This document shows positions 404 through 47,223 of a DNA stretch of 50,670 nt, in pieces; within the stretch, counting starts at the first letter, position 1; the number at the start of each line of letters is the position of its first letter. The DNA lies in the IMG/VR virus record IMGVR_UViG_3300030620_000009, positions 1 to 50,670 of that record; one strand, 5' to 3'. Position numbers and translations under genes: made by a program. This DNA comes from a virus (Duplodnaviria; Caudoviricetes). Under the pieces are notes generated by a model. It was not told the origin of the DNA, made no database searches, and was given only the letters and a program-made list of their open reading frames with translations.

Positions 404-433
404 ATTATAACATATCTCCCTATGGAACTGCAA
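404..433 (-). promoter_or_regulatory. sigma70-type promoter, leftward
   Basis: TTGCAG-18nt-TATAAT with TG extended -10 on minus strand. Confidence 0.8.
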
Positions 434-2355: not shown

Positions 2356-2558
2356 CTCAGGCTAACAAGGCAAGTGTAAAGAGGATCTTAGACTCCCTTG
2401 AGAGTGTAGGACAATACGTCCATCCACTCCCCGAGGGAACTACAAACCACGACCGCCAGCTAATCCGACTTCACATTCGGAACACCGCCAGAAGATACGG
2501 GTTCCAGGTTACTACGAAGACGACTAAGGTCGACATCGTCGTTGACGTCGTCCGATGA
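2352..2558 (+). CDS. hypothetical protein
   Basis: GTGA coupling, SD GGAGG. Confidence 0.55.
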   Translation: MTQANKASVKRILDSLESVGQYVHPLPEGTTNHDRQLIRLHIRNTARRYGFQVTTKTTKVDIVVDVVR

Positions 2559-2560
2559 TG

Positions 2561-2961
2561 GACGGTGGAGATGGGGGAGATTCTCTCTCTCTCTATCTAT
2601 AGATCTCTCTGTCCTTGATCCTTCTCCCATCTCCTAATGTATCCTTCCCTCCTCTCCAAATTGCTGCTATAGAGAGAGAGAAAGAGAATCTCCCCCATCT
2701 CCCCCGTCTAGTAGTGATAAATTGACACATATCCGGAACGGTCATTCTCGAAAGGCAACAGTTCCCTTGACGCAACTCCGAATTCCCTTGTCCGAGAATC
2801 TCCCCAAGAATCTCCACCCACGTGTACCGAGAATCTCCCCCAATTCCCTGGATTCTCCACCCCGAGTTCGGGTCCGTACTCACATCCGCACGGGAACAAG
2901 AATCTCCCCCCATCTCCCCCGTCTTTGGGGAGATTCTCGGGACACGATGGGGGAGATTCTT
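2561..2961. repeat. probable replication origin: large inverted repeat plus about 8-9 iteron-like (G/A)AGAATCTCCCC copies in both orientations
   Basis: IR arms 2561-2596 and 2669-2708; further motif copies near 2794, 2807, 2829, 2898 (+) and 2927, 2949 (-); lies just upstream of the primase-helicase operon. Confidence 0.75.
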
Positions 2962-2988: not shown

Positions 2989-3018
2989 TTGTTTCTTGCC
3001 TAGGACCTGTGTTATAAT
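2989..3018 (+). promoter_or_regulatory. sigma70-type promoter
   Basis: TTGTTT-18nt-TATAAT (CTGTGTTATAAT). Confidence 0.75.
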
Positions 3019-5984: not shown

Positions 5985-6021
5985 GGTGGGAGCCTACAGC
6001 AGGATAGGCTCCCACCTTCTT
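5985..6021 (+). terminator. rho-independent terminator
   Basis: 12-bp stem GGTGGGAGCCTA/TAGGCTCCCACC followed by TTCTT. Confidence 0.7.
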
Positions 6022-6048: not shown

Positions 6049-6078
6049 TTGCGTATCCAGATGGGTCTGTGTTATAAT
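6049..6078 (+). promoter_or_regulatory. sigma70-type promoter
   Basis: TTGCGT-18nt-TATAAT (CTGTGTTATAAT). Confidence 0.85.
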
Positions 6079-6653: not shown

Positions 6654-6684
6654 CAGCACCCCGTGGGGGAAGTTCCTGGCAAAG

Positions 6685-6719
6685 GCCCGAAGGAATCGGA
6701 AGGTTCCTTCGGGTCGTTT
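6685..6719 (+). terminator. hairpin, terminator or RNA stability element
   Basis: GCCCGAAGGAATC-GGAA-GGTTCCTTCGGGT stem with GNRA loop, weak U tract. Confidence 0.5.
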
Positions 6720-7143: not shown

Positions 7144-7173
7144 TTGACTTAGCCCTTGGACCTGTGTTATAAT
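7144..7173 (+). promoter_or_regulatory. sigma70-type promoter
   Basis: TTGACT-18nt-TATAAT (CTGTGTTATAAT). Confidence 0.9.
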
Positions 7174-7956: not shown

Positions 7957-8174
7957 GAGACCTCAGAACACCAGCGGTGCGGGAGAAGATCCACGAGGGT
8001 GGAATGTTCGCCCAAATGATGAACGACCCAGGATGCTCATGTCAGGTCACAACCTGCCTTGAGTGTCCTGGATGCTCCTACGAAGTCCCGGAGGAACTCA
8101 TTGCTCATTGCCCCAAGTGCGGTGAAGCAATTGGTACCTACGGGTGGGACGGTGTAGAACTGTTCGAGTCATGA
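7953..8174 (+). CDS. Cys-rich protein, paralog of ORF 1-361
   Basis: RDLRTPAVREKIHEG...CSCQVTTCLECPGCSYEVP. Confidence 0.65.
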   Translation: MRDLRTPAVREKIHEGGMFAQMMNDPGCSCQVTTCLECPGCSYEVPEELIAHCPKCGEAIGTYGWDGVELFES

Positions 8175-9502
8175 TGTTGAACATTCCTCCTGGCAGAGAA
8201 CTACGACCTTATCAGGTCAAAGCAGCTAATACAATGCTTGCCAGGGAGAGATTCTACTTGGGGGATGACCCTGGTGTAGGTAAGACCCCACCGACCATTG
8301 TTGCAATTGCCTCACTAGGATTCCCAGACACCCTAATTGTCTGTCCGAAGAACGCCATTGGTGTCTGGGAAGCACACCTAGAGGAGTGGTACGGGCACAA
8401 GGCCAAGCTCTACATCTCCGGCCGAGCAAAGTATGCTGACATAGCATCACCAGGAGTCCTTATCACCAACTACGAGCAGCTGGGTGACATTGTAAAGCGT
8501 CGGCAGTACTGGTCCGTAGTTGTCCTGGATGAGGCCCATAAGATCCGGAATAGGAAGACACAGGCGTTCACAAACACCAAGCGGATCTCTGCCAAGTACT
8601 TCTTTCTCCTGTCCGGGACGCCGGTCTTCAAGGGTGCACAGGATCTGTGGGCACCACTCAACGTTCTCGCCCCAATGAAGTTTACCGCCTACTGGCCATT
8701 TGTCGGCAGGTACTGTTTCGAGGACGTCGGTTGGGGTGGAAGTCGGAATGTTTGGGGTGTAAAGGATCCCCTCCAACTTGCCAAGGACCTTTCGCCTTAT
8801 TTCCTCAGGCGGCGCAAGGTAGATGTCCTAACCGATCTGCCTGTGAAGCAGCGAGACAAGATTCCCTTGCATATGACTCCCAAGCAGGCAAAGCATTACG
8901 TGGACCTTGTCAGGGAGATGATGACCGAGACCTCTGAGGGATTGGTCCTTACACCATCGGCTGCCGTTCGAACAGTGCGCCTGCGGGAGCTGCTTGTGAG
9001 TCCGCGGTTGCTGGCCATCGACGACGATGGCGTGGCCGTCCCGGCGCTGATGGAGAAGCTTGAGGAGCGTGGGACTCCGACCTTGGTCTATACACCCTTC
9101 CGAGCGGGTGTACGTGTCATTGCAGAGTATATACGACGGAACAAATGGGCGGCCCTCGAGCTCGTTGGCGGACTTACGCCTTCTCGCACAGCAGCGATTG
9201 TTCGGGAGTTCCAGAATGGAACTGATCCGAATAGGGTTCTGGTTGCAACTGTGTCGATTGGGTCGGCGTGGACTGGGACAGCGGCACAGCAGACTTACTT
9301 TGTCGGCTACGACTGGGCACCGCAGATCAACATCCAGGCGGAAGATCGCATGCACCGATATGGGGGTCGAGGGTATGAGGTTTACTACTTTACCCATCGA
9401 GGAACTATTGACGAGCATGTGATGGATGTTCTGGGTGGGAAGATCACGGTGGAGAATCTGATCGTCAACCACCGGTTGATCTTGGATACAGGGAGGATCT
9501 GA
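8171..9502 (+). CDS. SNF2-family DEAH helicase
   Basis: LRPYQ, GDDPGVGKT, LDEAH, LSGTP, FLRRRK, QAEDRMHRYG. Confidence 0.92.
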   Translation: MMLNIPPGRELRPYQVKAANTMLARERFYLGDDPGVGKTPPTIVAIASLGFPDTLIVCPKNAIGVWEAHLEEWYGHKAKLYISGRAKYADIASPGVLITNYEQLGDIVKRRQYWSVVVLDEAHKIRNRKTQAFTNTKRISAKYFFLLSGTPVFKGAQDLWAPLNVLAPMKFTAYWPFVGRYCFEDVGWGGSRNVWGVKDPLQLAKDLSPYFLRRRKVDVLTDLPVKQRDKIPLHMTPKQAKHYVDLVREMMTETSEGLVLTPSAAVRTVRLRELLVSPRLLAIDDDGVAVPALMEKLEERGTPTLVYTPFRAGVRVIAEYIRRNKWAALELVGGLTPSRTAAIVREFQNGTDPNRVLVATVSIGSAWTGTAAQQTYFVGYDWAPQINIQAEDRMHRYGGRGYEVYYFTHRGTIDEHVMDVLGGKITVENLIVNHRLILDTGRI

Positions 9503-9580
9503 ATGGAAGAAGGTCTCATTGTCGCGTTCTTCTACCTTGGTCTGTATCTGCTTCTTAGGGGTATGATGGGGAGGATCTAG
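9503..9580 (+). CDS. 25-aa TM micropeptide
   Basis: MEEGLIVAFFYLGLYLLLRGMMGRI; SD GGGAGG; TAG/GTG overlap with next gene. Confidence 0.5.
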   Translation: MEEGLIVAFFYLGLYLLLRGMMGRI

Positions 9581-9849
9581 TGGAGTATTGGATTGCGGGC
9601 TTGATTGGGATTGCGTTGGGCATCCCGATTGCGGTGCTCATCGGTCTGGTGGTAGGCTTGGTGATCGTCCGGGACCGTAGGAAGACAATAGATCCGTGGT
9701 CATCGCAGGGGTTACTCTGCCCTGACTGTGGACACCACATCCATCGCCCACGACCTTGCAGCTGGACCTTCGGAGCAGGAAAGAACGAACGGCCTTGTAC
9801 TTGTCCCGCCCACACTCTGGCCGCCCACAAGGTGGAGGCCCAACCGTGA
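9580..9849 (+). CDS. TM-anchored Zn-binding protein
   Basis: N-terminal TM; CPDCGH...C...CTC as in ORF 1612. Confidence 0.6.
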   Translation: MEYWIAGLIGIALGIPIAVLIGLVVGLVIVRDRRKTIDPWSSQGLLCPDCGHHIHRPRPCSWTFGAGKNERPCTCPAHTLAAHKVEAQP

Positions 9850-10157
9850 GCGAAGCGCGTGACATGGAGCGGGCCGCACTGACAGCGATGGAGGCCGCAC
9901 GCGACCTGCGGTCAGCAGTTGCCGCGTTTGCCGAGGAGCGTCGGCTGATGGAATGGGCGGCACAGCGCATCTCTGAGGAGCGCGGACGGCTTGAAGAAGT
10001 CCTCCGAGACGGAGAGAAGGCAATTGAGCCCGGCAAGCCGGAACGCGGCAACCTCATGCGCTTCATCTGCCTGTTCCGCGGTCATCGCTGGGCTGACTGG
10101 ATCGATAACGGTGGGCGACGGGTGTGCGCGCGCTGCGACTATCGGAGGGTTCGATGA
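9846..10157 (+). CDS. coiled-coil protein with C-terminal DUF1660-like Zn motif
   Basis: ICLFRGHRW...CARC; GTGA coupling. Confidence 0.5.
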   Translation: MSEARDMERAALTAMEAARDLRSAVAAFAEERRLMEWAAQRISEERGRLEEVLRDGEKAIEPGKPERGNLMRFICLFRGHRWADWIDNGGRRVCARCDYRRVR

Positions 10158-10630
10158 GCCGAGACCCGCAGAGGGAGGCGCTGGACGCCCTGGTCTTTCC
10201 GATCGGCGAGGGACCGTGGAACCGGATGCAGGCACGGATCGAGGCGATGCCACCCGGCTCCGACCGCGTACAGGCTCTTGTGGACCTCAACGCCATGCTC
10301 ATCGAGCATCGCGCCGCCCTCGAAGCCGAGCCCGTGGGGCTGGACGAGATAAGAAGCCGGATTGTGGCCATGCGTCCTTGGCCTGAGGGTGAGACATTAC
10401 TGCAAGCACTTGAACGTTACGCCGCTACCATCGCTGCCCTCGATACAGAGCCGGAACCTAATTGGCGAAAGGCCATTGCTGAGTCCGACGAGTGGATTGG
10501 CTGGGATACAATCTACTGCTATTGGTGTGGTCAAGTTGAACATGAGGGGCATGTAGACACTTGCACATGGGTTGCTGCCCAGCCCGCCAAAGGAGAAGCT
10601 CAGGAGGGGACCGATGCCAAGGGTGGATAA
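10154..10630 (+). CDS. hypothetical protein
   Basis: ATGA coupling; CYWCG..H..H..C motif. Confidence 0.5.
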   Translation: MSRDPQREALDALVFPIGEGPWNRMQARIEAMPPGSDRVQALVDLNAMLIEHRAALEAEPVGLDEIRSRIVAMRPWPEGETLLQALERYAATIAALDTEPEPNWRKAIAESDEWIGWDTIYCYWCGQVEHEGHVDTCTWVAAQPAKGEAQEGTDAKGG

Positions 10631-10982
10631 GGAGGAGGACCTTCGTTGGAGAGATCAGCTGGGCAAGGTCTACCGCGTGCCCCAGATGACGACGTCACAC
10701 ATCAAGAACTCCATGAAGTACCTCCTGCGCGAGGCGGAACGCCTCCATGATATGCGGACTGTCGGTGCCTTTCAGAAGGTAGTCGATAGTAACGTTGATC
10801 TGGAGAAGGAGGCTAACCAGGCCATGGTCGAGTATTGGTTCGAGCACCTGACTATGACTCCGACGGAGTACGCTCGGCGACTCGATATCATGTGGGCGTT
10901 TCACCACGAGTTGCAGAAGCGTCGGGTACAGTTTGTGAGACTTGCGAGGGAAGGTGTGGCAAACTTCGAGTTTCCGGCATGA
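10614..10982 (+). CDS. hypothetical phage protein
   Basis: SD GGAGG; WRDQLGKVYRVPQMTTSHIKN. Confidence 0.6.
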   Translation: MPRVDKEEDLRWRDQLGKVYRVPQMTTSHIKNSMKYLLREAERLHDMRTVGAFQKVVDSNVDLEKEANQAMVEYWFEHLTMTPTEYARRLDIMWAFHHELQKRRVQFVRLAREGVANFEFPA

Positions 10983-11179
10983 AGACTTACCAGTGCAGCC
11001 GATGCAACAACTGGTTCTCTGCTGATCCGAACCATCCAGGTTACCCAGACCTGCATCGGTGCCGAGCAGACCAAGAGGTGACGCAGTTTGAGCGCCTGGT
11101 GGCAGAAGTTGGACAGGAGTTTGGTATGCCCGCAGAAGTTATAGGCAGGTTGCTGACCCTCGAGACCGAATCTTCTTAG
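10979..11179 (+). CDS. small Zn-binding protein
   Basis: ATGA coupling; CSRC...HRC. Confidence 0.5.
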   Translation: MKTYQCSRCNNWFSADPNHPGYPDLHRCRADQEVTQFERLVAEVGQEFGMPAEVIGRLLTLETESS

Positions 11180-11189
11180 AAAGAGAGGC

Positions 11190-11219
11190 GTGTCATGTTC
11201 CGGCAATCTGTGTTATAAT
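11190..11219 (+). promoter_or_regulatory. extended -10 promoter
   Basis: CTGTGTTATAAT identical to other promoters; -35 GTGTCA at 18 nt. Confidence 0.75.
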
Positions 11220-11225
11220 AGGAGG

Positions 11226-11427
11226 AGAGATGAGCGCTGTGGGGATTACCAGTTCCGACTTCCTGAACAGGTCCACCGTTGGCCGCCTTTCGTTGGATCT
11301 GCTCAGGGAGCCCGACCGAGTGCCTCCCACTGTTGTAGGCTCATCTCCAACAGTGGGTTCGATCGGACTCCCTATGTCTGCGACGACCTTGGTGGCTCTC
11401 CCCCCAGCCGTGGGGTCGTCGCAGACA
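11226..11427 (+). ncRNA. candidate structured RNA with three long tandem hairpins
   Basis: stems 11259-11310, 11305-11373, 11375-11427, each with G-U pairs; directly after promoter. Confidence 0.6.
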
Positions 11428-11434
11428 CCTCTGA

Positions 11435-11851
11435 GTGAAGATCGTGGCTGACCATAGGTCACGCCGACAGAAGCTGCTTGCGGTTATCAACCCAAGATCA
11501 GGCGCGACTGATGGAGAGCGTGCAAACGCACAAGCCGCCCTCGACCGTGTGGATGCAAAGCGTCCTGCTGGAACGTTGTCTCGTGAGGATATCCTTGTTA
11601 GCCCTTCCCAGGAACAAGCTCAGGATCTCTTCGACCGTGCCGTCGATTATGTTGCTCGGAAGTATAAGGTAGACCCGGAAGACCTAAGAGCAGCCGACGA
11701 GTACTTCCGACGCGGAGGACATTCTTGCACTGACCCAGAGCACCAGGAGGGGTGGCACTTCCACGGCATGACACGTGTGCACAAGAACCCACCACGATAC
11801 CGTGAGGGTCAGAAGGTCCGTAGTAACTTCAGAGGGGTGAAGTCCACATGA
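11435..11851 (+). CDS. hypothetical protein with DUF2786-like N-terminus
   Basis: QKLLAVINPRSGATDGERANAQAAL. Confidence 0.55.
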   Translation: MKIVADHRSRRQKLLAVINPRSGATDGERANAQAALDRVDAKRPAGTLSREDILVSPSQEQAQDLFDRAVDYVARKYKVDPEDLRAADEYFRRGGHSCTDPEHQEGWHFHGMTRVHKNPPRYREGQKVRSNFRGVKST

Positions 11852-13044
11852 TCGAGAGCGGACAGCAACGTGATGTGGTAACACCCTTCCTAGAGTGGGA
11901 TCTTCCAGAAACCTCCTCCGGGGATGACCATATCGAGATACACACATCCGACCGAATCTTGTTCAAACGGTGCCGGCGGAAGTGGAACTGGCAAAGCAGC
12001 ATGCGGGAGAATCTTCTTCCCATCGGGCAGGCTGTTGCTCCCCTGTGGTTTGGAACCGGTTGGCACTTCCTGATGGAAGACTACCACGGGTACCAGAAGT
12101 ACCCGACGGTAGATCATGCCATCGTTGCCTTCAAGGATGCGCACAACGCGCGTGAGCTTCCAGACGATCCTAGGGCTTTGCTGGACCTCATGGCAGGCAT
12201 GGCACATTACTACACCGAGGATTGGTTGACATACCATCCAGAACCTTACAAGACCCTGTGGGTGAGCGGGATTCCACAGGTTGAGGTCGACATTGACATC
12301 GACATCACTGACCGACTTCATACCAGATGCTGGGATCGGTACGGTGATTCGGATTGGCTGGAAGGAGTTCTTCAAGGTCGACCTGTCATCTACCGCATGA
12401 CCTTGGATAGGGTGGCAATCGACGAACACGACCTTGTGTACGTTATCGACTATAAGACCGCCCGGCAGGTCGATACCAACAAGCTCTCCAACGACCCTCA
12501 AGTTAGTGCGTACTTCTGGGGTGCGGCCGAGTTCTATGGTGACCGACTCGGTGGTGTTGTTTGGCAGCAACATCTGAAGTCCTTCCCCGAAGACCCTGAG
12601 TGGTTACACTCCTCGCAGCGTTTCAGCATGAATAGGCAGCAGTGCAGGTCTACGTACCCACTGTACCGAAAGGCACTGAAGGAGAAGTACGGCAGGATTC
12701 CAGCGCAGTACGTTGAGTTCCTTGACTGGCTCGCTGAGCAGCAGGGTGACTGGGGCGACCGCTTCGTTCGTCGTGACATTATCCGTCGGAATCCGCATGC
12801 AAGGAGGGCAGAAGAGCAGAAGATACTCGACGAGGTCCTAGATATGCTTGATCCGGGACTTCCACTGTACCCAAACCCGACACGTGACTGTACATGGGAC
12901 TGTCCGTTCAAAGATCCGTGCATTGCAATGGATGACGGCAGCGATATGGACTTCCTCTTGAAGACCTCCTACGAGAAGTGGAAGGGGTACAAGCAGGATT
13001 GGAAGAAGCGTGTCATTCTCCCTGATGGATCGAGGTACGCATGA
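11848..13044 (+). CDS. PD-(D/E)XK exonuclease, Cas4/AddB-like with Fe-S Cys
   Basis: HTSDRILFKRCRRKW, LDRV, IDYKT, C-terminal CTWDCPFKDPC. Confidence 0.85.
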   Translation: MIESGQQRDVVTPFLEWDLPETSSGDDHIEIHTSDRILFKRCRRKWNWQSSMRENLLPIGQAVAPLWFGTGWHFLMEDYHGYQKYPTVDHAIVAFKDAHNARELPDDPRALLDLMAGMAHYYTEDWLTYHPEPYKTLWVSGIPQVEVDIDIDITDRLHTRCWDRYGDSDWLEGVLQGRPVIYRMTLDRVAIDEHDLVYVIDYKTARQVDTNKLSNDPQVSAYFWGAAEFYGDRLGGVVWQQHLKSFPEDPEWLHSSQRFSMNRQQCRSTYPLYRKALKEKYGRIPAQYVEFLDWLAEQQGDWGDRFVRRDIIRRNPHARRAEEQKILDEVLDMLDPGLPLYPNPTRDCTWDCPFKDPCIAMDDGSDMDFLLKTSYEKWKGYKQDWKKRVILPDGSRYA

Positions 13045-15699: not shown

Positions 15700-15912
15700 A
15701 TGAAGGTGGGTAACTACTCGCTGCGCAACATCTTCACCAAGGAGCCGGTCGCCATCGCAGGCGGACTCAGATCGGTCCTGTTCGTAGCCGTGCTGCTCGG
15801 AGCCGTGCTGCTCGACGAGAAGCAGCTAGCCGGGATCGCGCTCGCGCTCGAGCTCGTACTGGGCCTGTTCGCCCGGCAGTCCTCGACCGGCAACGCGAAC
15901 CTGCCAAAGTGA
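15700..15912 (+). CDS. holin (two TM)
   Basis: KEPVAI...two TMs...ARQS pattern; SD AGGAGG. Confidence 0.7.
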   Translation: MKVGNYSLRNIFTKEPVAIAGGLRSVLFVAVLLGAVLLDEKQLAGIALALELVLGLFARQSSTGNANLPK

Positions 15913-16640
15913 AGGCAGTTGCCCTCCTCTCAGGCGGGCTTGACTCGACAACCCTTGCCTACTATCTCAGGTCCAAGTACGATGCCGAACTAACCTGCCT
16001 GTCCTTCGACTATGGCCAACGCCACAAGAGGGAACTCAGGGCCGCGAAGGAGATCGCCGAAGAGCTCGGGGCTGAACATCACACCGTTGAGCTGCGCGTC
16101 CAAGTCCCACCGCTGGAGCACCTCGTCACCAAAGGTCTCGGCTACATCCTCGGCGGCAGCGCACTTACTGACGAATCAGTCCCCGTTCCCGACGGGCACT
16201 ACGCTGAGGAGTCAATGAAGCAGACGATTGTTCCTAACCGGAACGCGATCATGCTTTCCATTGCCTACGGAGTTGCCGTGGCACGCGGCGCGGAGATGGT
16301 GGCCTTTGCTGCCCACTCTGGTGATCATGCTATCTACCCAGACTGCCGTCCGGAGTTTGTCGAGTATCTGAACTTGGCACTCCGAACTGGGAACACTTGG
16401 GCGACTCCTCAACCTGACCTAGTTGGTCCGTTCCTTCACATGACCAAGAGTGACATTGCCGGGATGGCACGTGACTTAGCAGTTCCAATCGAGAGGACCT
16501 GGTCTTGCTACAAGGGGGAGGAGTATCACTGTGGCGTCTGCGGAACGTGCTACGAAAGGCGGGAGGCCTTCGAAGAAGCGGGAATTGTCGACCCAACTTA
16601 CTACGTCGACAATACCACCCGCTTCGCAGCTCCCTCTTGA
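15909..16640 (+). CDS. queC: 7-cyano-7-deazaguanine synthase
   Basis: LLSGGLDSTT, FDYGQRH, VPNRN, YPDCRPEF, TWSCY...HCGVCGTC. Confidence 0.97.
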   Translation: MKAVALLSGGLDSTTLAYYLRSKYDAELTCLSFDYGQRHKRELRAAKEIAEELGAEHHTVELRVQVPPLEHLVTKGLGYILGGSALTDESVPVPDGHYAEESMKQTIVPNRNAIMLSIAYGVAVARGAEMVAFAAHSGDHAIYPDCRPEFVEYLNLALRTGNTWATPQPDLVGPFLHMTKSDIAGMARDLAVPIERTWSCYKGEEYHCGVCGTCYERREAFEEAGIVDPTYYVDNTTRFAAPS

Positions 16641-16839
16641 GTTTGGAGAGGAGGTCGAGGTAGTTGTCCGATATAGAGGGCAGACGTGGACCGTGAAGGG
16701 CAGCGTCCGCGAGGTCTCCCTGGACCGTGATATTGAGGACATTTCAGGTCCGTACGATGTGTGGTCCGAGTACCGCCCTTCGGGTATTGTTCGATTGGGT
16801 ATTGTTCTGGATCAGAGAAAGGCACTTCTGGAGACATGA
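16531..16839 (+). CDS. hypothetical protein overlapping queC 3' end
   Basis: SD GGAGGAG 7 nt before GTG 16531; ATGA coupling downstream. Confidence 0.5.
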   Translation: MASAERATKGGRPSKKRELSTQLTTSTIPPASQLPLEFGEEVEVVVRYRGQTWTVKGSVREVSLDRDIEDISGPYDVWSEYRPSGIVRLGIVLDQRKALLET

Positions 16840-16976
16840 GCAAGTCCCAGTGGGAGAAGTGTAAGCACAACACCGTCCATAGGATAGAGCAGACCACCAG
16901 ATCTGGTGGGGGCTTCACTGTGTGGAAGTGTTCAACTTGTGGGCTCGAGTTCAAGCCCACCACGAACAAGAACTGA
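16836..16976 (+). CDS. small Zn-ribbon protein
   Basis: CKH...WKCSTCG. Confidence 0.5.
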   Translation: MSKSQWEKCKHNTVHRIEQTTRSGGGFTVWKCSTCGLEFKPTTNKN

Positions 16977-16979
16977 CTC

Positions 16980-17096
16980 ATGAAGTGGGTTCATGCCAAG
17001 GACCCTGAAGATAAGCATCCCGTCGATCCACACTACGCCGCAGATGGTAAGTGGGTGTGTAACACTTGCCGTGAACCGATAAGGGAGGCTAAGTGA
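16980..17096 (+). CDS. 38-aa His/Cys peptide
   Basis: MKWVHAKDPEDKHPVDPHYAADGKWVCNTCREPIREAK; GTGA coupling to next gene. Confidence 0.45.
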   Translation: MKWVHAKDPEDKHPVDPHYAADGKWVCNTCREPIREAK

Positions 17097-17551
17097 ACAG
17101 TCCAGATTGGGGATCGCTAGAATCGATCCAGAAGCAGGCACACGAGATTGCGCAGACACATGGATGGTGGGACACCGCAGACGACTGCAATGTCCCGACT
17201 AAGCTAGCTCTGGCAGCCGGCGAGTTGGTCGGCGAGGCGCTCGAGACCTTCCGGGCCAACAAGATGGAGTTGTACTACCAGTACAAGAACCCGGAGACGG
17301 GTAAACTCCAGAGGATCACGCCGGAGATCCATGCGGAGATGCTTCGGCAGGAGGCGGCGCTTCAGGAAGGTCAGCGGCAGTATAAGCAGGGGGATTTCAA
17401 GCCAGCAGGATTCGGGATCGAACTGGCGGATGCAATCATTCGAATTGGGGACCTTGCTGAGTGGCTCGACATTGACCTTCAGCAGATGGTTCACATCAAG
17501 CAGAACTTCAACAGGACGCGCCCAATGAGACACGGAGGCAAGAAGGTTTGA
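17093..17551 (+). CDS. MazG-like all-alpha NTP pyrophosphatase
   Basis: KLALAAGELVGEALE...IELADAIIRIGDL...NRTRPMRHGGK. Confidence 0.85.
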   Translation: MNSPDWGSLESIQKQAHEIAQTHGWWDTADDCNVPTKLALAAGELVGEALETFRANKMELYYQYKNPETGKLQRITPEIHAEMLRQEAALQEGQRQYKQGDFKPAGFGIELADAIIRIGDLAEWLDIDLQQMVHIKQNFNRTRPMRHGGKKV

Positions 17552-18069
17552 CGTCAATCAGCAAGACGTTCGACTTCCACGCTGCACACCGTCTTCCCAA
17601 CCACGACGGGAAGTGCCGACGCCTCCATGGCCATACCTACCGTGTTGACATTATGATCACGGGTAACATTATCGACACGGAAGGCGACAGTAGCCAGGCA
17701 ATGGTGATCGACTTTGGAGTCCTGAAGGACATCTGGAAGGGGTTCGACGAACACCTTGATCACCACGCCCTCCTCTGGGACAAGGACCCCCTCGTTGATC
17801 TTATCAACGCCGGCGTAGGAAGCTTGGAGGAGTATGGAATTGAGGTTACACCAGTTCCACCTACTGCTGAACACATCGCTGAGATGATCTTCCGAAACCT
17901 GTGGGCGGCACTCGCTGAGCGGCCAGAACCTGTTATCCTGGACGCTGTCCGTGTCTGGGAGACTCCAACCTCGTGGGCGCTATTCGACGGTCGGCACATT
18001 CACATCATTCAGGGCTACGACCCTGGTGCCCCTGAGGGTGACCGAACAGTTATCAGCAAGGTGAACTAA
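17548..18069 (+). CDS. queD: 6-carboxytetrahydropterin synthase
   Basis: FHAAHRL...CRRLHGHTY, DFG, LDH, PTAE, VWETPTSWA. Confidence 0.95.
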   Translation: MTSISKTFDFHAAHRLPNHDGKCRRLHGHTYRVDIMITGNIIDTEGDSSQAMVIDFGVLKDIWKGFDEHLDHHALLWDKDPLVDLINAGVGSLEEYGIEVTPVPPTAEHIAEMIFRNLWAALAERPEPVILDAVRVWETPTSWALFDGRHIHIIQGYDPGAPEGDRTVISKVN

Positions 18070-18839
18070 TGACCACCGATGAGCGTCGATTCGCGGTGGT
18101 GGAGATCTTCGGGCCGACTCTGCAAGGAGAGGGGGCACTAGCGGGAGTGCCTTCACACTTCATCAGGTTTGGTGGATGCGACTTCTCCTGCCACTGGTGT
18201 GACTCCGCACATGCTGTCCTGCCAGAGAACGTACGTCAAGCATCCAAGATGCTGACTGATGAGATCATCATTGCCGTCCTAGAGCTCCGGGATCTGTCGG
18301 CAGATTGGGTGACCCTTTCTGGTGGTAATCCTGCACTGCATGACTTGGGCAAACTCGTGGAGGCGCTACACTCCCTACAGTTCAAGGTGGCAGTCGAGAC
18401 TCAAGGTTCAATGTGGAAGGACTGGCTCTCCTACGTTGATCAGCTTACAGTTAGCCCAAAGCCACCGAGTAGCCGAATGTCCAATGAGTACCTGCCAACC
18501 TTCATGAAGAAGGCTATTGGGGTGGAAGGTAAACACTACACCGATGTACACTCCGAGCGAGCAACCATCTGCTTGAAGGTGCCGGTGTATGATGAGGACG
18601 ACCTCGACTTCGCACTTGGCGTTCATTGGTCGTATCCGGATGTTCCGTTCTACATCAGCATCGTGACCGAAATGGGAGGACTTCGTGGGGACTTCGCCGA
18701 CGGAAGAGTCGACACCGCCGAATCGCTCCTCACCCGCTACCAGCGTGTCGTCCAAGACGTCCTCCGCCGTGGAGTCTCCGACGTCCGAATCCTTCCGCAG
18801 CTCCACTACCTCATCTGGGGGAATCGAACAGGTGTCTGA
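18069..18839 (+). CDS. queE: 7-carboxy-7-deazaguanine synthase (radical SAM)
   Basis: EIFGPTLQGEG, CDFSCHWCD, SGGNP, VETQG, VSPKP, LPQLH. Confidence 0.96.
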   Translation: MTTDERRFAVVEIFGPTLQGEGALAGVPSHFIRFGGCDFSCHWCDSAHAVLPENVRQASKMLTDEIIIAVLELRDLSADWVTLSGGNPALHDLGKLVEALHSLQFKVAVETQGSMWKDWLSYVDQLTVSPKPPSSRMSNEYLPTFMKKAIGVEGKHYTDVHSERATICLKVPVYDEDDLDFALGVHWSYPDVPFYISIVTEMGGLRGDFADGRVDTAESLLTRYQRVVQDVLRRGVSDVRILPQLHYLIWGNRTGV

Positions 18840-19407
18840 CGACGAACCCTTCGACAGCATGGTCAAACACGCAGATAGCATTCTGCAGATTCTGGTTGGC
18901 CCAACGTACAGCAGTGAGCACTTCAAGGACACACCGACAAGGTACGTCAGGATGTTAGCGTCGTTTACGCAGTACACGGAGGCTAACCTTGCTGCCATCC
19001 TCAAGGCAGGATTCGAAGAAACTCAGGACAACATCCTCGTTACCCAACGTCACATCCCCTTTGCAGGTCTTTGTGCACACCACCTACTCCCCTTCTGGGG
19101 AGAGGCCCGACTTGGTTATTTACCCCGGAAGCGGGTCGTCGGACTCTCCAAGTTGGCACGGCTCGTGTTTGCTGCAGGGCGTGTTGCGCCTGGTACCCAG
19201 GAACACATCACCAACCTGATTGCTGACACCCTCTACGACACCCTCGAGCCAATCGGGGTCGGGGTCATAACAACTGCAGCCCATGGCTGTATGGCAGTGC
19301 GAGGTGTAAATGCTCCACAGACTGTAACACAGGTCAATGCGCTTCGTGGCCAAATGCTCCTGAACCCGCAAGCGCGGGCGGAGTTCATGCAAACAGTACA
19401 GGAGTAG
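18832..19407 (+). CDS. folE: GTP cyclohydrolase I
   Basis: DTPTR, LCAHHLLPFWG, GLSKLAR, QE, HGCMAVRGV. Confidence 0.93.
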   Translation: MSDDEPFDSMVKHADSILQILVGPTYSSEHFKDTPTRYVRMLASFTQYTEANLAAILKAGFEETQDNILVTQRHIPFAGLCAHHLLPFWGEARLGYLPRKRVVGLSKLARLVFAAGRVAPGTQEHITNLIADTLYDTLEPIGVGVITTAAHGCMAVRGVNAPQTVTQVNALRGQMLLNPQARAEFMQTVQE

Positions 19408-19411
19408 AACG

Positions 19412-19816
19412 GTGCAGGAGAAGGACGAGACCAGTGGCGAAGACCAGCCTCAGGAAGGACAAGCCAGTTCGACGGAAGAAGCCACAGAAGGAGCGGCCGC
19501 AGGCACTCCGGAAGAGGCAGTCGGCGGAGAGACAGACCAGAAGGATAGTGAAGAGGGAGCGTCGGAAGCTCCTGAAGGAGGAGAGGACACTTCGGGAGAG
19601 GTTGGCGGCCCTGAATCCGAGGCAGAGGAAGCCGAAGGCGAAGGTGGAGACGACAGCGCCGACAGTGGATCCGACGCTGAAGGGGAAGGCGAGAGCGAAG
19701 GCGAAGAAGGAACTCCGGAGCTCTGTGGAGTCGACGGTTGTGTCCGACCACCCCACCCCGCGACGCCGCTCGCGCACTCCTTCGGTCGACAGACCGGCCG
19801 AGACCTCCTCGGGTAG
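19412..19816 (+). CDS. highly acidic protein with C-terminal Cys/His motif
   Basis: SD AGGAG after folE stop; TAG/GTG overlap with next gene; CGVDGC...H...H. Confidence 0.5.
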   Translation: MQEKDETSGEDQPQEGQASSTEEATEGAAAGTPEEAVGGETDQKDSEEGASEAPEGGEDTSGEVGGPESEAEEAEGEGGDDSADSGSDAEGEGESEGEEGTPELCGVDGCVRPPHPATPLAHSFGRQTGRDLLG

Positions 19817-19859
19817 TGTCAGCCAGCGAAAGGTACCTAGCCCTCCTAGAGGAGGCTAG
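19434..19859 (+). CDS. highly basic Arg/Lys-rich protein in overlapping frame
   Basis: open +1 frame with G-ending codons typical of this genome; purine-rich SD-like sequence. Confidence 0.35.
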   Translation: MAKTSLRKDKPVRRKKPQKERPQALRKRQSAERQTRRIVKRERRKLLKEERTLRERLAALNPRQRKPKAKVETTAPTVDPTLKGKARAKAKKELRSSVESTVVSDHPTPRRRSRTPSVDRPAETSSGSVSQRKVPSPPRGG

Positions 19860-20223
19860 TGACCTTCATACCCGCAAGAATCGTGGGTATGCCGGGGATA
19901 GCCCTGACCCCTGGATCAACTTCCGGGGGTCAGAGCGTCTTGGCATTCCGGCATCTGTAGGTTGCGTCATAAGGCTCCAAGACAAAGTTGCACGTGTCGA
20001 GAACCTCATCCGCAATCCAAACAACGATCAGGTCAATGAGTCCATTCGGGACACACTAATGGACCTGGCAGCCTACAGCTACATTGCCATCTGCTTGTTG
20101 GAGGAGGAATGGGCAAGAGAGGAATCAACGTTCCCGAAGACCTCTCCTGCGTCGGACAATACTACCACGACTCAACCGTTGAGGAGTACTACGCCAGTGC
20201 TGCAGATCGGGACGCCAGAGTGA
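19816..20223 (+). CDS. DUF1599/nucleotide-modification-associated domain 1 (all-alpha NTP-PPase-like)
   Basis: KNRGYA...DPWINF...RLQDKVAR...ESIRDTLMDLAAY. Confidence 0.8.
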   Translation: MSASERYLALLEEASDLHTRKNRGYAGDSPDPWINFRGSERLGIPASVGCVIRLQDKVARVENLIRNPNNDQVNESIRDTLMDLAAYSYIAICLLEEEWAREESTFPKTSPASDNTTTTQPLRSTTPVLQIGTPE

Positions 20224-20340
20224 GTCAGCTGCAGTCGCTGGGGCGCTTCCCGGTGCGGTACTTCACAAGCAGCAACGTGCGTTTGGGGTTGACTAGTGTG
20301 TGGGGTCTCCGTTGGACTGAGCCGCGAGGGGAGGACTTGG

Positions 20341-21132
20341 ATGCAATTCGCGCCGGTAGCTAACCTGGCCGGCTACGATCGCCTTGAGGAGTTGGGTCTG
20401 CTTGGAAGTTACCATCTGCTTATTGCGACCGAGGTGGTCAAGGACGTTAGCGCATGGGAGAACTTCTGGTTGGTCCGCGGACCAGTAGATGGAGACCCCG
20501 AGCGCTTCGTTATCATGGACAATGGGCTGATCGAGACAGGCGTTCCAACTGACCCGCAGACACTGAAGGAGGCGGCAGATGCTGTAGAGGCTACCTGCAT
20601 TGTCCTTCCGGATGTTCTGCGGGACTACCACAAGACCCTGAAGGTTGTGTCGGCAGCACTGCCAGAGCTGCAGCGAACGGGATATCCGCTGATGGGGGTG
20701 GTGCAAGGGCGTACATGGGAGGAAGTTGACTACATTGTCGACTTCTACCAGCGGGTTGGAGTTCAGTTTCTTTCAATCCCACGTGTGATGGTAGAAATCT
20801 TCGGATCACGTGTTCCGCTGGTTCACCGCTTCCGACACCGTGGAATGCCGATCCACCTGTTGGGGTTCAGCGAGAACATGTGGGACGATGTCGTCTCTGC
20901 GACCATGTCAGGTGTAATAGGGCTTGACAGTGCGGTTCCCTTGTGGTACCACACATCACTTCCCGAGAGGCCACCTCTGAATGCCGACTTCGGTCGTCGC
21001 CCAAGAGACTACTGGACGACCCCAGGAGATGCGTTCAACTACGACAATGTGGGGAAAGTACGACAGTGGCTGATAGATGCACTGGATGCCCGTACACAGG
21101 AGGAGCGGCAGGGACACGTGGTGACCCCTTAG
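20341..21132 (+). CDS. divergent TGT-fold deazaguanine transglycosylase (DpdA-like)
   Basis: IMDNG, VLPDVL, MGVVQG, LSIP, IHLLG, LDSAVP in TGT motif order; within preQ0 cluster. Confidence 0.75.
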   Translation: MQFAPVANLAGYDRLEELGLLGSYHLLIATEVVKDVSAWENFWLVRGPVDGDPERFVIMDNGLIETGVPTDPQTLKEAADAVEATCIVLPDVLRDYHKTLKVVSAALPELQRTGYPLMGVVQGRTWEEVDYIVDFYQRVGVQFLSIPRVMVEIFGSRVPLVHRFRHRGMPIHLLGFSENMWDDVVSATMSGVIGLDSAVPLWYHTSLPERPPLNADFGRRPRDYWTTPGDAFNYDNVGKVRQWLIDALDARTQEERQGHVVTP

Positions 21133-45400: not shown

Positions 45401-47223
45401 TTCTTACCTCGCGGCGGTGTTGTACCCCTCATGCGCTGGGAGTCCTTATCACTTTGGAATCCCCCTGTAGGACCCTGCTGAGCCGCCCCTGTCGTGAATG
45501 GATCGGCAGGGCCTGAATTACCCTCGTTCCGCATCGAGGGCGGAGGAGGAGCAACCTTGTGAGTTGCCTTGACAACTTCGTTGTCACTAACCTTCGAATC
45601 CTTCGGGGGTACAGGAAGCGGAGCACCTGTAATCTGATCGACCCCCGGTGACTCTTCCTCCTCAGTGTCAAAGTACTCAGCACCTTCAGGGAGCAACTCA
45701 TCGAGGAGCGCATCGGCGTTATCCACGTTCAACGCCTTGAACAGAAGCCCAATGAGTGTCCTATCTGACATTGTGCCTGCAGTCTGCTGTCCGTTGAGCG
45801 TCGCAGCCTGCACGACTGCCTGGACTCGTGGAAGTATATCATGCTCCAGGATGGCTGGGAAGTCAACGTTGATCTGGACGTCCTCTTCCTCCAGATCTAC
45901 GTTCGCGTCCGTACCCGCACCCAGATTGACGATTGCTGCCTCACCCAGCACAATCGTCTGCGCTTCACGCACTGCCGCCTCAACCACTTGCGGGAGAGAA
46001 CTAATAGGTCCGTCAACAGACCTCCTAGCCTTCCGAACAACAAATGTCAGGATGTCCCTGTAGACATCAGCCCAGAGCTCCTGCCGAGTTTGCATCTTGA
46101 GCTCAGTTGGCCGGTCGAGGGTACGGCTGGTGGCGTAGTTGCCGACACTGGAGTCGCCAGTCAGGATGGTCTCGGGAATGCCGGTGCCTGCACTCACCAT
46201 AAGCCAGAGGCGGCGGCCTTCTTCAGGATTGGGCTGGGCACCTGCAGTCCTAATGGGCTCGAGTAACTGCCCAGCCTGCTGAATCCAGGTAGACCCGGCC
46301 GTAGCGGGTGGATTCTTCTCAAGTGCAGATGCGCCACTATTGGCGCCGAGGGTCGTTCCCATCTTGGTCTTGGCATTCTTGACCGCGTTGGGCCCTGTAA
46401 CTGTTAGCTTGAACGCAAACCTGGCGAGGGCTCGGCGAATAGTCGCATAGTCCTCGAGGTCGTTCTTGACTGCCATTGCCCAGTCGAGGGACGCGTAGTG
46501 CTCGGGGATGCCGAACCGCATGTCTCCCAAACGTCCGACTGCAACGTGGTAAACCGGAGAGTCCCACAACACCTTGGATTCACCAAAGGATGCAGGCTTC
46601 ACCTGAGGGTCATACAGCCAATCGGGGTAATACTCCCGAACACCCTTCTTCTCCTCGAGTCTCCCGGTCTGTGGGTTGAACTCCATGCGATTGTACTGTC
46701 GCACGTAGTACCACGGCTCTGCCGCGTCATCTGGGTTCCGAATGACGTCCTCGCACTCTTCGACCGGGAACGTACGGACCTGCACCTTCCCCGCGAGCTG
46801 GTTTGTGAACAGGACGATGAACAGGTTCGACTTGGTCTGGAGCTCGACTTCCTTCTCGGACTGGGCCTGCTTACCTGTTAGAACCTTCCGGTTTCGGCGG
46901 TCCTTGAGGAAGGACTGAACAACTTTGTTGACGCCTGGGTCAGGTGAATGAATTGTTACACCTTGTCCCCAAACATAGTGCGCCTGAACATCCGTTGCGT
47001 GGCGGATTAGGGGATTCTTGAGGTAGGCCATGACGGCCATCAACGTAATCTTGCGGAGGCCCTCGCGGCTGAACTCACGCTGTGCCTGACTCGCAAGACG
47101 AACCCATCCTGCATCTTCAACTGCCAACTCCAACTCGGCGAATCGCTCCTCCAGAAGCTGGATCGTCTGATCAGACTGGTAGAGTGCCTCTTGGAGCTGC
47201 GCCTTGGTTGCTACGCGTGCCAC
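45397..47223 (-). CDS. portal protein
   Basis: position; NPLIRHA...VWGQGV, RFGIPE, GIPETILTGD..GNYATSRTL. Confidence 0.85.
   Translation of the reverse strand: MARVATKAQLQEALYQSDQTIQLLEERFAELELAVEDAGWVRLASQAQREFSREGLRKITLMAVMAYLKNPLIRHATDVQAHYVWGQGVTIHSPDPGVNKVVQSFLKDRRNRKVLTGKQAQSEKEVELQTKSNLFIVLFTNQLAGKVQVRTFPVEECEDVIRNPDDAAEPWYYVRQYNRMEFNPQTGRLEEKKGVREYYPDWLYDPQVKPASFGESKVLWDSPVYHVAVGRLGDMRFGIPEHYASLDWAMAVKNDLEDYATIRRALARFAFKLTVTGPNAVKNAKTKMGTTLGANSGASALEKNPPATAGSTWIQQAGQLLEPIRTAGAQPNPEEGRRLWLMVSAGTGIPETILTGDSSVGNYATSRTLDRPTELKMQTRQELWADVYRDILTFVVRKARRSVDGPISSLPQVVEAAVREAQTIVLGEAAIVNLGAGTDANVDLEEEDVQINVDFPAILEHDILPRVQAVVQAATLNGQQTAGTMSDRTLIGLLFKALNVDNADALLDELLPEGAEYFDTEEEESPGVDQITGAPLPVPPKDSKVSDNEVVKATHKVAPPPPSMRNEGNSGPADPFTTGAAQQGPTGGFQSDKDSQRMRGTTPPRGKK

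What the first reader, a model, noticed from the sequence alone, without database searches (positions are those of the whole stretch)
11226..11427. Promoter-driven three-hairpin RNA with a switchable junction and a C6 loop
Seen: H1 11259-11310 (17 bp, one mismatch); H2 11305-11373 (long interrupted stem, core CCCACTGTTG/CAACAGTGGG); H3 11375-11427 (about 22 bp, loop CTCCCCCC). H1 and H2 compete for AGGGAG (11305-11310). The H2 apex GCTCATCTC is complementary to the transcript's own 5' GAGATGAGC. The overlapping 73-aa ORF looks like a by-product, since its SD lies upstream of the likely TSS. Known: C-rich loops (actinobacterial 6C RNA, cuckoo RNAs) can pair with G-rich RBS regions, and long stems are RNase III substrates. 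Inference: an undescribed phage sRNA or riboregulator gating the recombination-lysis-deazaguanine-polymerase operon.
Basis: partly seen in the sequence, partly recalled or inferred. Interest (0 to 1): 0.7.

Follow-up and report, generated by a model that had tools for sequence, protein, structure and literature searches.

The report
Orphan three-hairpin leader after a phage promoter
A soil phage carries a roughly 200-base, apparently non-coding stretch of three strong hairpins right after one of its own promoters and just ahead of its DNA-recombination genes; it is probably a structured RNA leader controlling those genes, but it has no relatives, so its function cannot be confirmed from sequence.

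Summary
H1, H2 and H3 are at the stated coordinates. Each folds far better than shuffles (z -4.6, -4.8, -6.0), as does the whole region (z -4.79). It ranks 2nd of 2019 windows in the genome. The promoter is real beyond chance: TGTTATAAT occurs 6 times against 0.21 expected, in one aligned family.

The 73-aa ORF is an orphan and lacks the phage's coding signature.

The sRNA reading is not shown:
- There is no U-tract terminator.
- H3 ends 8 nt before the next gene.
- The minus strand folds equally well (z -4.70).
- Rfam has no match.
- No homologue exists in anything I could fetch, so covariation cannot be tested.
- The nearest relative in hand (L082) has a different gene at this position.

My best reading (about 0.45) is a cis-acting structured leader of the promoter's transcript. 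It would be an RNase III processing, stability or read-through control element at the head of the 12-kb DNA-metabolism operon.

A sister clade carries a different, covarying structured element at the same genomic position. That supports the reading by analogy only; homology was tested and not found. Interest is modest.

The parts
11190..11219 (+). Promoter P11211: -35-like GTGTCA (11190-11195), 18-nt spacer, extended -10 TGTTATAAT (11211-11219)
   Evidence: Consensus scan, 10 of 12 matches plus TG. TGNTATAAT occurs 6 times against 0.21 expected. The six sites align as one family; this copy has the weakest -35 and upstream part.
11220..11229 (+). Purine run AGGAGGAGAG directly after the -10. 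It is an SD-like sequence for ORF73, but lies at or upstream of the expected transcription start (about 11225-11227)
   Evidence: Sequence. Promoter P3010 has the same TATAAT-AGGAGAGAT with no start codon behind it. The position of the start is inferred from the usual 6-8 nt distance, not measured.
11227..11235 (+). 5' segment GAGATGAGC, exact complement of the H2 apex
   Evidence: Sequence. Paired in the 202-nt MFE, not in the 255-nt MFE. 28 of 2000 shuffles give 9 nt or more.
11259..11310 (+). Hairpin H1
   Evidence: -25.8 kcal/mol, z -4.57 on +; -21.8 kcal/mol, z -2.91 on -. 20 pairs, 3 of them G-U.
11305..11373 (+). Hairpin H2, with its apex at 11339-11347. It shares 11305-11310 with H1
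   Evidence: -37.3 kcal/mol, z -4.80 on +; -44.0 kcal/mol, z -6.80 on -. Inverted repeat I10.
11375..11427 (+). Hairpin H3: 14-bp perfect arms extended by G-U pairs, a small apical helix, and the loop CUCCCCCC at 11398-11405
   Evidence: Inverted repeat I2, 100% complementary. -34.9 kcal/mol, z -6.00 on +; -32.9 kcal/mol, z -5.21 on -. No T-run follows.
11230..11451 (+). 73-codon ORF across the hairpins, probably not a protein gene. Its stop overlaps GTG 11444 of the next gene (GTGGCTGA)
   Evidence: Orphan. No Pfam or PHROG family. No coding signature. Three of six frames are open here.
11435..11851 (+). First gene after the element: 138 aa from GTG 11435, or 135 aa from GTG 11444 as in the source's gene call. 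Function unknown, and no clear SD
   Evidence: Coding signature present, +0.199. Orphan, with the stored form 135 aa long. No family.

Best explanation
The stretch 11226-11434 is a non-coding, cis-acting structured RNA leader. Host RNA polymerase starts at the phage's own extended -10 promoter P11211, just downstream of the AGGAGG. It transcribes three long hairpins of 20-26 pairs each before reaching the first gene of the roughly 12-kb operon. That operon carries an unknown 138-aa gene, a Cas4-like exonuclease, Sak4, a DUF669 protein, the deazaguanine genes and DNA polymerase A.

The hairpins most likely act on the RNA itself. They are long enough to be RNase III substrates, and after cutting or as they stand would set the stability and translatability of the downstream message. 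H3 abuts the SD-poor start of the 138-aa gene. They may also hold back read-through into the operon.

Shown: the promoter family, the structure and its significance, and the lack of coding signal.

Inferred: the transcription start, that the RNA rather than the DNA is the active form, and every functional step.
For: - The promoter is one of six conserved TGTGTTATAAT promoters, all in the early region on the gene strand. It is the last one before a 12-kb run of + strand genes with no further copy.
- Structure: z -4.79 for the whole region and -4.6 to -6.0 per hairpin. It persists in a longer context (z -4.53). The region ranks 2nd of 2019 windows.
- ORF73 shows no protein signal. The flanking small ORFs (66, 136, 138 and 168 aa) do score as coding.
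- The + strand forms more pairs and more G-U pairs than the - strand: 67 pairs with 7 G-U against 62 pairs with 3 G-U.
- Stem lengths of 20, 26 and 21 pairs are close to the 22-nt minimum RNase III target size quoted in PMC5371410 (passages read). That paper also lists lambda, T7 and T3 sites and RBS-unmasking cases.
- By analogy, a sister clade (L002, L003, L004, L083, L084, L088) has a different, strongly structured intercistronic element at the head of the same gene block. In it 94% of cells are paired, 9 of 44 pairs show compensatory change, and G-U pairs lie on the gene strand.
Against: - No homologue was found, so there is no covariation and no evidence of selection on the pairs.
- The minus strand folds as well overall, and H2 is clearly better on it (-44.0 against -37.3 kcal/mol). 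That is what a DNA palindrome would give.
- P11211 has the poorest -35 and upstream part of the family.
- ORF73 has the best SD-ATG arrangement among the starts listed, and its stop overlaps the next gene's GTG. A translated leader ORF is therefore not excluded, above all on read-through transcripts from upstream promoters.
- Equally strong single hairpins occur inside real genes of this phage, for example 19881-19950 at -43 kcal/mol.
- Covariance models of the sister-clade element do not recognise this region.
- The nearest relative in hand lacks any counterpart.
Confidence: 0.45

Rival explanations
1. A discrete trans-acting small RNA of about 200 nt. It would run from P11211 to H3, and its C-rich H3 loop would pair with G-rich ribosome-binding sites of phage or host messages.
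For: A promoter followed by three stable hairpins. An 8-nt loop with six C's on a 21-pair stem. The C-rich loops of 6C RNA do bind G-rich RBS regions (PMC6486639, passages read).
Against: There is no U-tract after H3, and no terminator-like site was called in 11226-11430. Mycobacterial RNA polymerase did not stop at hairpins without U-tracts in vitro (PMC3993855, abstract). H3 ends 8 nt before the next gene. Only 1 of 3 loops is C-rich. Rfam gave no hit to 6C or any other family at E up to 10. GGGGGAG sites number 13 against 11.9 expected, and I placed none at a start codon.
Confidence: 0.12
2. A tail-less terminator or attenuator cluster. The hairpins would stop early transcription and most P11211 transcripts, much like lambda PR'-6S RNA-tR' (recalled, not looked up). 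A phage factor would then allow read-through into the middle operon.
For: The cluster starts 80 nt after the stop of the upstream gene, with gaps under 15 nt between hairpins. This fits the 'hairpin cluster' termination units proposed in PMC8355165 (abstract). The promoter-before-hairpins layout would give a timing switch. The terminase is nearest to Streptomyces and Actinoplanes phages, at 52% and 50% identity.
Against: There is no U-tract. The phage's own terminator-like hairpins at 5985-6016 and 6684-6715 are followed by T-rich tails. Experimental work argues against tail-less termination (PMC3993855, abstract). No antiterminator gene was identified. The host is unknown.
Confidence: 0.1
3. 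ORF73 is translated, either as a small orphan protein or as a leader ORF. Its translation would open H3 and be coupled to the SD-poor 138-aa gene.
For: AGGAGG lies 4 nt before the ATG. The stop overlaps GTG 11444 as GTGGCTGA. The source's gene caller called it. Transcripts from upstream promoters would contain the SD.
Against: No homologue among 5.8 billion clustered proteins or 1.84 billion representatives. The 8 other hits are multi-stretch low-complexity matches in proteins of 598-2098 aa. The codon-frame score sits at about the 2nd percentile of real chunks. The same purine run follows promoter P3010 without an ORF. An open frame of 73 codons is not rare at this GC content (my estimate is about 9% per frame), and 3 of 6 frames are open here.
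Confidence: 0.15
4. A DNA-level element: three adjacent palindromes serving as protein-binding or cruciform sites for regulation, replication or recombination next to the recombination genes.
For: Both strands fold equally well, and H2 folds better on the minus strand. The H3 apex TCTCCCCC matches the core of the GAGAATCTCCCCC iterons at 2554-2961. About 870 nt (the 66-aa ORF, promoter, hairpins and 138-aa gene) are extra here compared with relatives such as L009, where the 136-aa ORF's homologue lies directly before the exonuclease.
Against: Palindromes of 52-69 bp with loops of 6-25 nt are unlike usual operator or recombinase sites (my knowledge). Outside the iteron cluster the 8-mer occurs 3 times, about the 2.9 expected by chance. 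The iteron cluster itself is the better origin candidate. The 5'-to-apex complementarity and the G-U excess on the + strand have no meaning for duplex DNA.
Confidence: 0.1
5. No function: a decayed remnant or chance by-product of a hypervariable region.
For: It is unique to this genome. The whole stretch 9580-11848 has almost no homologues in 160 related loci. There is no variation data.
Against: Three adjacent hairpins each at z of -4.6 or lower, together with a family promoter, are unlikely leftovers.
Confidence: 0.08

Closest known systems
RNase III processing sites in phage early and intercistronic RNA (T7, T3, lambda N-leader and cIII)
   Same: Long hairpins of about two helical turns, interrupted by internal loops, in non-coding stretches of a phage operon. 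One sits just before a gene start. PMC5371410 (passages) gives 22 nt as the minimum target and names lambda, T7 and T3 sites.
   Different: No sequence relation was tested or known. There are three in a row directly after a promoter. Cleavage is untested and the host is unknown.
HK022 putL/putR antitermination RNAs
   Same: A promoter-proximal structured nascent RNA ahead of a long phage operon. put acts over at least 10 kb (PMC9378689, passages).
   Different: put is about 70 nt with two stem-loops and a defined tertiary fold that binds the RNA polymerase beta' zinc-binding domain. Here there are three long, near-perfect hairpins over 200 nt. No sequence or model match is available, and activity cannot be tested.
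Actinobacterial 6C RNA (Rfam 6C)
   Same: A C-rich apical loop on a stable stem. The 6C loops pair with G-rich RBS regions (PMC6486639, passages).
   Different: No covariance-model hit. Only one C-rich loop. The element is phage-borne, has no terminator, and has no enriched G-rich targets.
Lambda PR'-6S RNA-tR' unit (recalled from my own knowledge; my search for it failed on syntax)
   Same: A constitutive promoter followed by a short structured transcript of about 200 nt, placed ahead of a long operon.
   Different: tR' is a canonical terminator, and Q and its qut site are defined. Here there is neither a U-tract nor a known antiterminator.
Sister-clade structured intercistronic element (L002 1242-1399, L003 1241-1402, L004 3813-3940, L083 3500-3692, L084 222-412)
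   Same: It sits at the same place in the genome, at the head of the exonuclease gene block. It is strongly structured (-72 to -113 kcal/mol), made of long hairpins, and has no Rfam match.
   Different: It follows a stop codon directly, without a promoter. It has the invariant motifs GCTGCTCCCCGGAG and CTCCAGGSCGGCTCCGC, which the window lacks. Its models score the window's element at 9.7 bits (E 0.72), or not at all.

Membership tests
Any Rfam 15 family (including 6C, cuckoo, ribozymes, riboswitches) | Covariance-model match at or near the gathering score | tested here: not met
   cmscan of 10500-12200 on both strands at E up to 10 gave only two chance-level hits: bZIP intron at 18.4 bits (gathering score 41) and mir-3913 at 17.6 bits (gathering score 100).
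6C RNA | Conserved cytosine-rich loops on more than one stem-loop (loops L2 and L3 in PMC6486639) | tested here: not met
   Only the H3 loop is C-rich. The H1 and H2 apices are not.
Canonical intrinsic terminator | GC-rich hairpin immediately followed by a U-tract | tested here: not met
   No terminator-like site in 11226-11430. The tails after H1, H2 and H3 are CCCGACC, ATGTCTG and CCTCTGAG.
RNase III substrate | Double-stranded stretch of about 22 nt or more | tested here: met
   Predicted pairs: 20 in H1, 26 in H2, 21 in H3. This is prediction only.
RNase III substrate | Cleavage by RNase III | not testable with these tools
   Needs an in vitro or in vivo assay.
HK022 put-type antitermination RNA | About 70 nt, two stem-loops, just downstream of an early promoter | tested here: inconclusive
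   The promoter-proximal position is shared. The size and the number and kind of hairpins differ.
HK022 put-type antitermination RNA | Terminator read-through activity through binding to RNA polymerase | not testable with these tools
   Functional assay needed.
Sister-clade structured element (models R1 and R2 built here) | Match to the covariance model, and the invariant motifs | tested here: not met
   R1 gives 9.7 bits, E 0.72, rank 6 of 29 weak hits. R2 gives no hit at E up to 10 in the element. The motifs are absent at up to 3 mismatches in the region.
Protein-coding gene (ORF73) | Homologues or a family match | tested here: not met
   Only itself. No Pfam or PHROG family.
Protein-coding gene (ORF73) | Codon and frame composition of the genome's genes | tested here: not met
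   Score -0.026 against a mean of 0.18 (sd 0.086). 2.4% of 125 real chunks fall below 0.
Protein-coding gene (ORF73) | Start codon with a Shine-Dalgarno sequence | tested here: met
   AGGAGG at 11220-11225, ATG at 11230. It probably lies upstream of the P11211 start, which is inference.
Retron-type msr/msd RNA | Adjacent reverse transcriptase | tested here: not met
   No RVT_1 match in the 50.7-kb record, which is 91% complete.

The most novel reading that the evidence does not exclude
The leader is a dual-purpose phage riboregulator. As a nascent RNA it would act on RNA polymerase or on termination to license the 12-kb DNA-metabolism operon, working like put without being a put relative. After RNase III cutting it would release a stable H3 hairpin whose C6 loop titrates G-rich ribosome-binding sites of host messages. 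Together with the unrelated covarying element at the same position in a sister clade, this would point to a recurrent, fast-evolving class of RNA switches at the early-to-middle boundary of these soil phages.
Probability: 0.08. Interest if true: 0.7.

Novelty: new member of a known kind. Interest (0 to 1): 0.33.

Why it matters
If the leader does control entry into the recombination, deazaguanine and polymerase operon, it would be an RNA-level timing device in an uncultured soil phage lineage whose regulation is otherwise unknown. It would also show that such devices turn over so fast that even 70%-identical relatives lack them. In practical terms, the 73-aa gene call here is probably spurious. 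The six-member promoter family gives a usable map of early transcription. As it stands this is a single-genome prediction without comparative or expression support.

Tried and rejected
Searches for homologues of the element or its flanks all came back empty:
- blastn of 10500-12500 against 50,697 phage records: no match.
- Exact-pattern scans of IMG/VR for the H3 arms: 0 hits.
- The same for the H2 core: 2 hits, both unrelated AT-rich terminators.
- The search for related loci with the exonuclease alone and with the 138-aa protein: none.
- The search for related loci with an exonuclease alignment: 80 viral, 80 metagenome and 2 genome loci. Only L082 is close (70%), and it has a 315-aa ORF instead of the element.
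- tblastn of 11 window proteins against 160 loci: 0 hits for ORF73, orf66, orf138, orf168, orf133, orf89 and orf359.
- The 65-69% identical relatives P0003, P0005-P0012 could not be fetched, because the tool that finds encoding contigs is closed.

Sequencing runs: no RNA holder was listed. Four soil DNA runs from 2 studies hold identical sequence with no variants.

Homology to the sister-clade element was rejected. The by-eye similarity of the H3 loop to its loop is not supported.

A retron reading was rejected, since there is no reverse transcriptase.

tRNA or tmRNA: none in the window.

The H3 loop as an extra iteron is at chance level.

C-loop targets in the phage are at chance level.

Host assignment stays unresolved.

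The Atlas look-up of the 135-aa protein gave only sub-0.9 leads.

Supplements of the cited papers were not opened.

Full report
CONTEXT

The window is a complete IMG/VR virus record of 50,670 bp, estimated 91% complete. Coded runs link it to soil metagenomes.

Genes run on the + strand from about 0.5 to 23.7 kb and on the - strand beyond that. Around the finding lie:
- an SNF2-type helicase (8144-9502);
- a run of small orphan ORFs (9580-11179);
- the element itself;
- an orphan 138-aa ORF;
- a Cas4-like PD-(D/E)XK exonuclease (11848-13044);
- a Sak4-like AAA_24 protein and a DUF669 protein;
- QueC, QueD (PTPS), a radical-SAM protein, GTP cyclohydrolase I and a DUF1599 protein;
- a family A DNA polymerase with an N-terminal UDG-like domain.

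The host is unresolved. The terminase is 52% and 50% identical to those of Streptomyces and Actinoplanes phages. The polymerase and exonuclease are about 36-37% identical to those of Brevundimonas phages.

Each beats every one of 200 dinucleotide shuffles on the + strand:
- H1: -25.8 kcal/mol, z -4.57.
- H2: -37.3 kcal/mol, z -4.80.
- H3: -34.9 kcal/mol, z -6.00.

The 202-nt region folds at -96.1 kcal/mol, z -4.79. In a 255-nt context that reaches into the next gene, all three hairpins persist (z -4.53).

Against the genome's own background:
- Window 11251-11450 ranks 2nd of 2019 overlapping 200-nt windows after correction for GC.
- H2 and H3 are two of the 15 strongest 70-nt hairpin clusters.
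- Comparable single hairpins do occur inside real genes. The strongest of all (19881-19950, -43 kcal/mol) lies in the DUF1599 gene.

- H1 and H2 do share AGGGAG at 11305-11310.
- The 5' GAGATGAGC is the exact complement of the H2 apex. That is a 1.4% event in shuffles (28 of 2000). It is used in the 202-nt MFE but not in the 255-nt MFE. The 'switch' is possible but not robustly predicted.

THE PROMOTER IS REAL BEYOND CHANCE

TGNTATAAT occurs six times in the window against 0.21 expected, and 0 of 100 shuffles reached six. The sites are at 404 (-), 511, 3010, 6070, 7165 and 11211.

The six sites align as one family: CTTGcc, 18 nt, cTGTGTTATAAT, mostly with AAATTGCCC upstream. P11211 keeps the extended -10 but has the weakest -35 (GTGTCA) and upstream part.

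It is the last copy before about 12 kb of + strand genes.

The purine run AGGAGGAGAG begins one base after the -10. A start at the usual distance (inference) would therefore leave ORF73's Shine-Dalgarno sequence out of the transcript. Promoter P3010 is followed by the same AGGAGAGAT with no ORF behind it. The purine run may therefore be a promoter-family feature rather than a ribosome-binding site.

ORF73 IS PROBABLY NOT A GENE

- It has no relative among 5.8 billion clustered proteins.
- An exhaustive phmmer search of 1.84 billion representatives found itself plus eight large proteins (598-2098 aa). Each was matched in 4-12 stretches, which is low-complexity P/S/T/V/G similarity.
- It has no Pfam or PHROG family.
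- Its GC by codon position is flat (0.60/0.58/0.62), whereas the phage's genes have GC2 near 0.43.
- Its in-frame codon likelihood does not beat the other frames. The score is -0.026, against a mean of 0.18 (sd 0.086) for 125 real 73-codon chunks, of which 2.4% fall below 0.
- The neighbouring small ORFs do score as coding.

Against this, the SD-ATG is excellent and the stop overlaps GTG 11444 of the next gene. A translated leader ORF on read-through transcripts therefore remains possible.

NO COMPARATIVE TEST IS POSSIBLE

Every route to homologues of the element or of its flanking orphan genes was empty.

The only close relative with DNA in hand is L082, whose exonuclease is 70% identical. 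It has a 98-aa and a 315-aa ORF where the window has the 66-aa ORF, the promoter, the hairpins and the 138-aa ORF.

In L009/L087, the homologue of the window's 136-aa ORF lies directly before the exonuclease. About 870 nt, including the element, are therefore extra in this phage.

Closer relatives exist as protein records (65-69% identity), but their contigs could not be fetched.

The four runs holding the sequence are DNA and identical, so there is no population variation either.

STRAND

The minus strand folds as well overall (z -4.70). H1 and H3 are better on +, and H2 is better on -.

The + strand forms 67 pairs with 7 G-U. The - strand forms 62 pairs with 3 G-U. That is a weak lean to the + strand. 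All genes and the promoter are on +.

A LEAD FROM A SISTER CLADE

I scanned the 700 nt upstream of the exonuclease in 88 distinct related loci. Only 3 (L083, L004, L034) had any 70-nt window at -33 kcal/mol or below.

L083 and L004, together with L002, L003, L084 and L088, share a 128-193-nt element. L268, L177 and L243 repeat three of those contigs. Its features:
- It has two or three long hairpins, at -72 to -113 kcal/mol.
- The motifs GCTGCTCCCCGGAG and CTCCAGGSCGGCTCCGC are invariant.
- 94% of cells are paired.
- 9 of 44 pairs show compensatory change.
- The covariation score is 0.255 against 0.147 in shuffles (0 of 500 as high), and it collapses when the partners are slid.
- Several pairs are G-U on the gene strand, so it is an RNA structure.
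- It sits between a stop codon and the next SD at the head of the exonuclease gene block. In L004 and L083 that is directly before the exonuclease. In L002 and L003 it is about 2.6 kb upstream, before a four-gene block.
- It has no Rfam match.

The window's element is not a detectable relative of it:
- Model R1 gives 9.7 bits (E 0.72), ranked 6th among weak hits to any hairpin-rich region.
- The stem-only model R2 does not hit H3 at E up to 10.
- The motifs are absent.
- R1 finds only its six source loci among 160.

I therefore use it only as an analogy. In this phage group, structured RNA at this boundary recurs, with different sequences.

MECHANISM

The most economical reading is a cis-acting leader. 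P11211 transcripts would begin at about 11226 and carry three hairpins of 20-26 pairs. They would then run straight into the SD-poor 138-aa gene and the operon.

Stems of this length are unusual for sRNAs or terminators. They fit RNase III substrates, for which 22 nt is the minimum (PMC5371410, passages). Phage lambda, T7 and T3 messages are classic targets, including cases where cutting unmasks an RBS.

Rivals:
- A put-like action on RNA polymerase (PMC9378689, passages) cannot be excluded, but it shares only the position.
- A terminator role is weakened by the missing U-tract (PMC3993855, abstract), although hairpin clusters have been proposed as termination units (PMC8355165, abstract).
- The discrete-sRNA and 6C-like reading has one C-rich loop in its favour. 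Against it are the absent terminator, the absent Rfam hit and the chance-level number of targets.
- A DNA-level role fits the strand symmetry but little else.

VERDICT

This is a real, statistically strong, promoter-proximal, probably non-coding hairpin cluster found in a single genome. It is most likely a structured leader or processing element of a known general kind. The specific sRNA claim is unproven, and the decisive comparative test is not possible with the data in reach.

Noticed in passing
window 404-412 (-), 511-519, 3010-3018, 6070-6078, 7165-7173, 11211-11219: A six-member family of extended -10 promoters (CTTGcc, 18 nt, cTGTGTTATAAT, mostly with AAATTGCCC upstream). All lie in the first 11.2 kb, and 404(-) and 511(+) are divergent. 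None lies in the late, minus-strand half, so late genes must use another signal.
   Followed up: partly
window 2554-2961: A cluster of about nine direct and inverted copies of GAGAATCTCCCCC(ATCTCC), just upstream of promoter P3010 and a DUF3854-containing 774-aa gene. It is the most structured 200-nt window in the genome (z -3.62). It looks like an iteron-type origin or operator array.
   Followed up: partly
L002 1242-1399; L003 1241-1402; L004 3813-3940; L083 3500-3692; L084 222-412 (L088 = L083, L268 = L004): An undescribed structured intercistronic RNA element in a sister clade of soil phages. It has no Rfam hit. Its motifs GCTGCTCCCCGGAG and CTCCAGGSCGGCTCCGC are invariant. 9 of 44 pairs show compensatory change, 94% of cells are paired, and G-U pairs lie on the gene strand. 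It sits at the head of the exonuclease gene block. It deserves its own look.
   Followed up: partly
window 19881-19950: The strongest hairpin of the genome (-43 kcal/mol, 12-bp perfect core) lies inside the DUF1599 (nucleotide modification associated) gene, not in an intergenic gap.
   Followed up: partly
window 46228-46278 (-): The best match in the window to the sister clade's stem-C model R2 (19.1 bits, rough E about 0.01). It is a hairpin ending in CCCAAU inside the 608-aa late gene. This is borderline and may be chance.
   Followed up: no
window 15909-23450: The deazaguanine DNA-modification gene set: QueC, PTPS/QueD, radical-SAM QueE-like, GTP cyclohydrolase I, DUF1599 and a 278-aa ORF without a family. 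It is followed by a family A polymerase that carries an N-terminal uracil-DNA-glycosylase-superfamily domain.
   Followed up: partly
window 9580-11851 against L082 1-1274 and L009 3532-4001: The stretch between the SNF2 helicase and the exonuclease is hypervariable. 6 of 7 small ORFs there have no tblastn hit in 160 related loci, and relatives carry different genes or none at this place.
   Followed up: partly
window 5985-6016 and 6684-6715: Two hairpins followed by T-rich tails, each lying upstream of a family promoter (P6070 and P7165). They are the phage's likely true terminators and a contrast to the tail-less H1-H3.
   Followed up: partly
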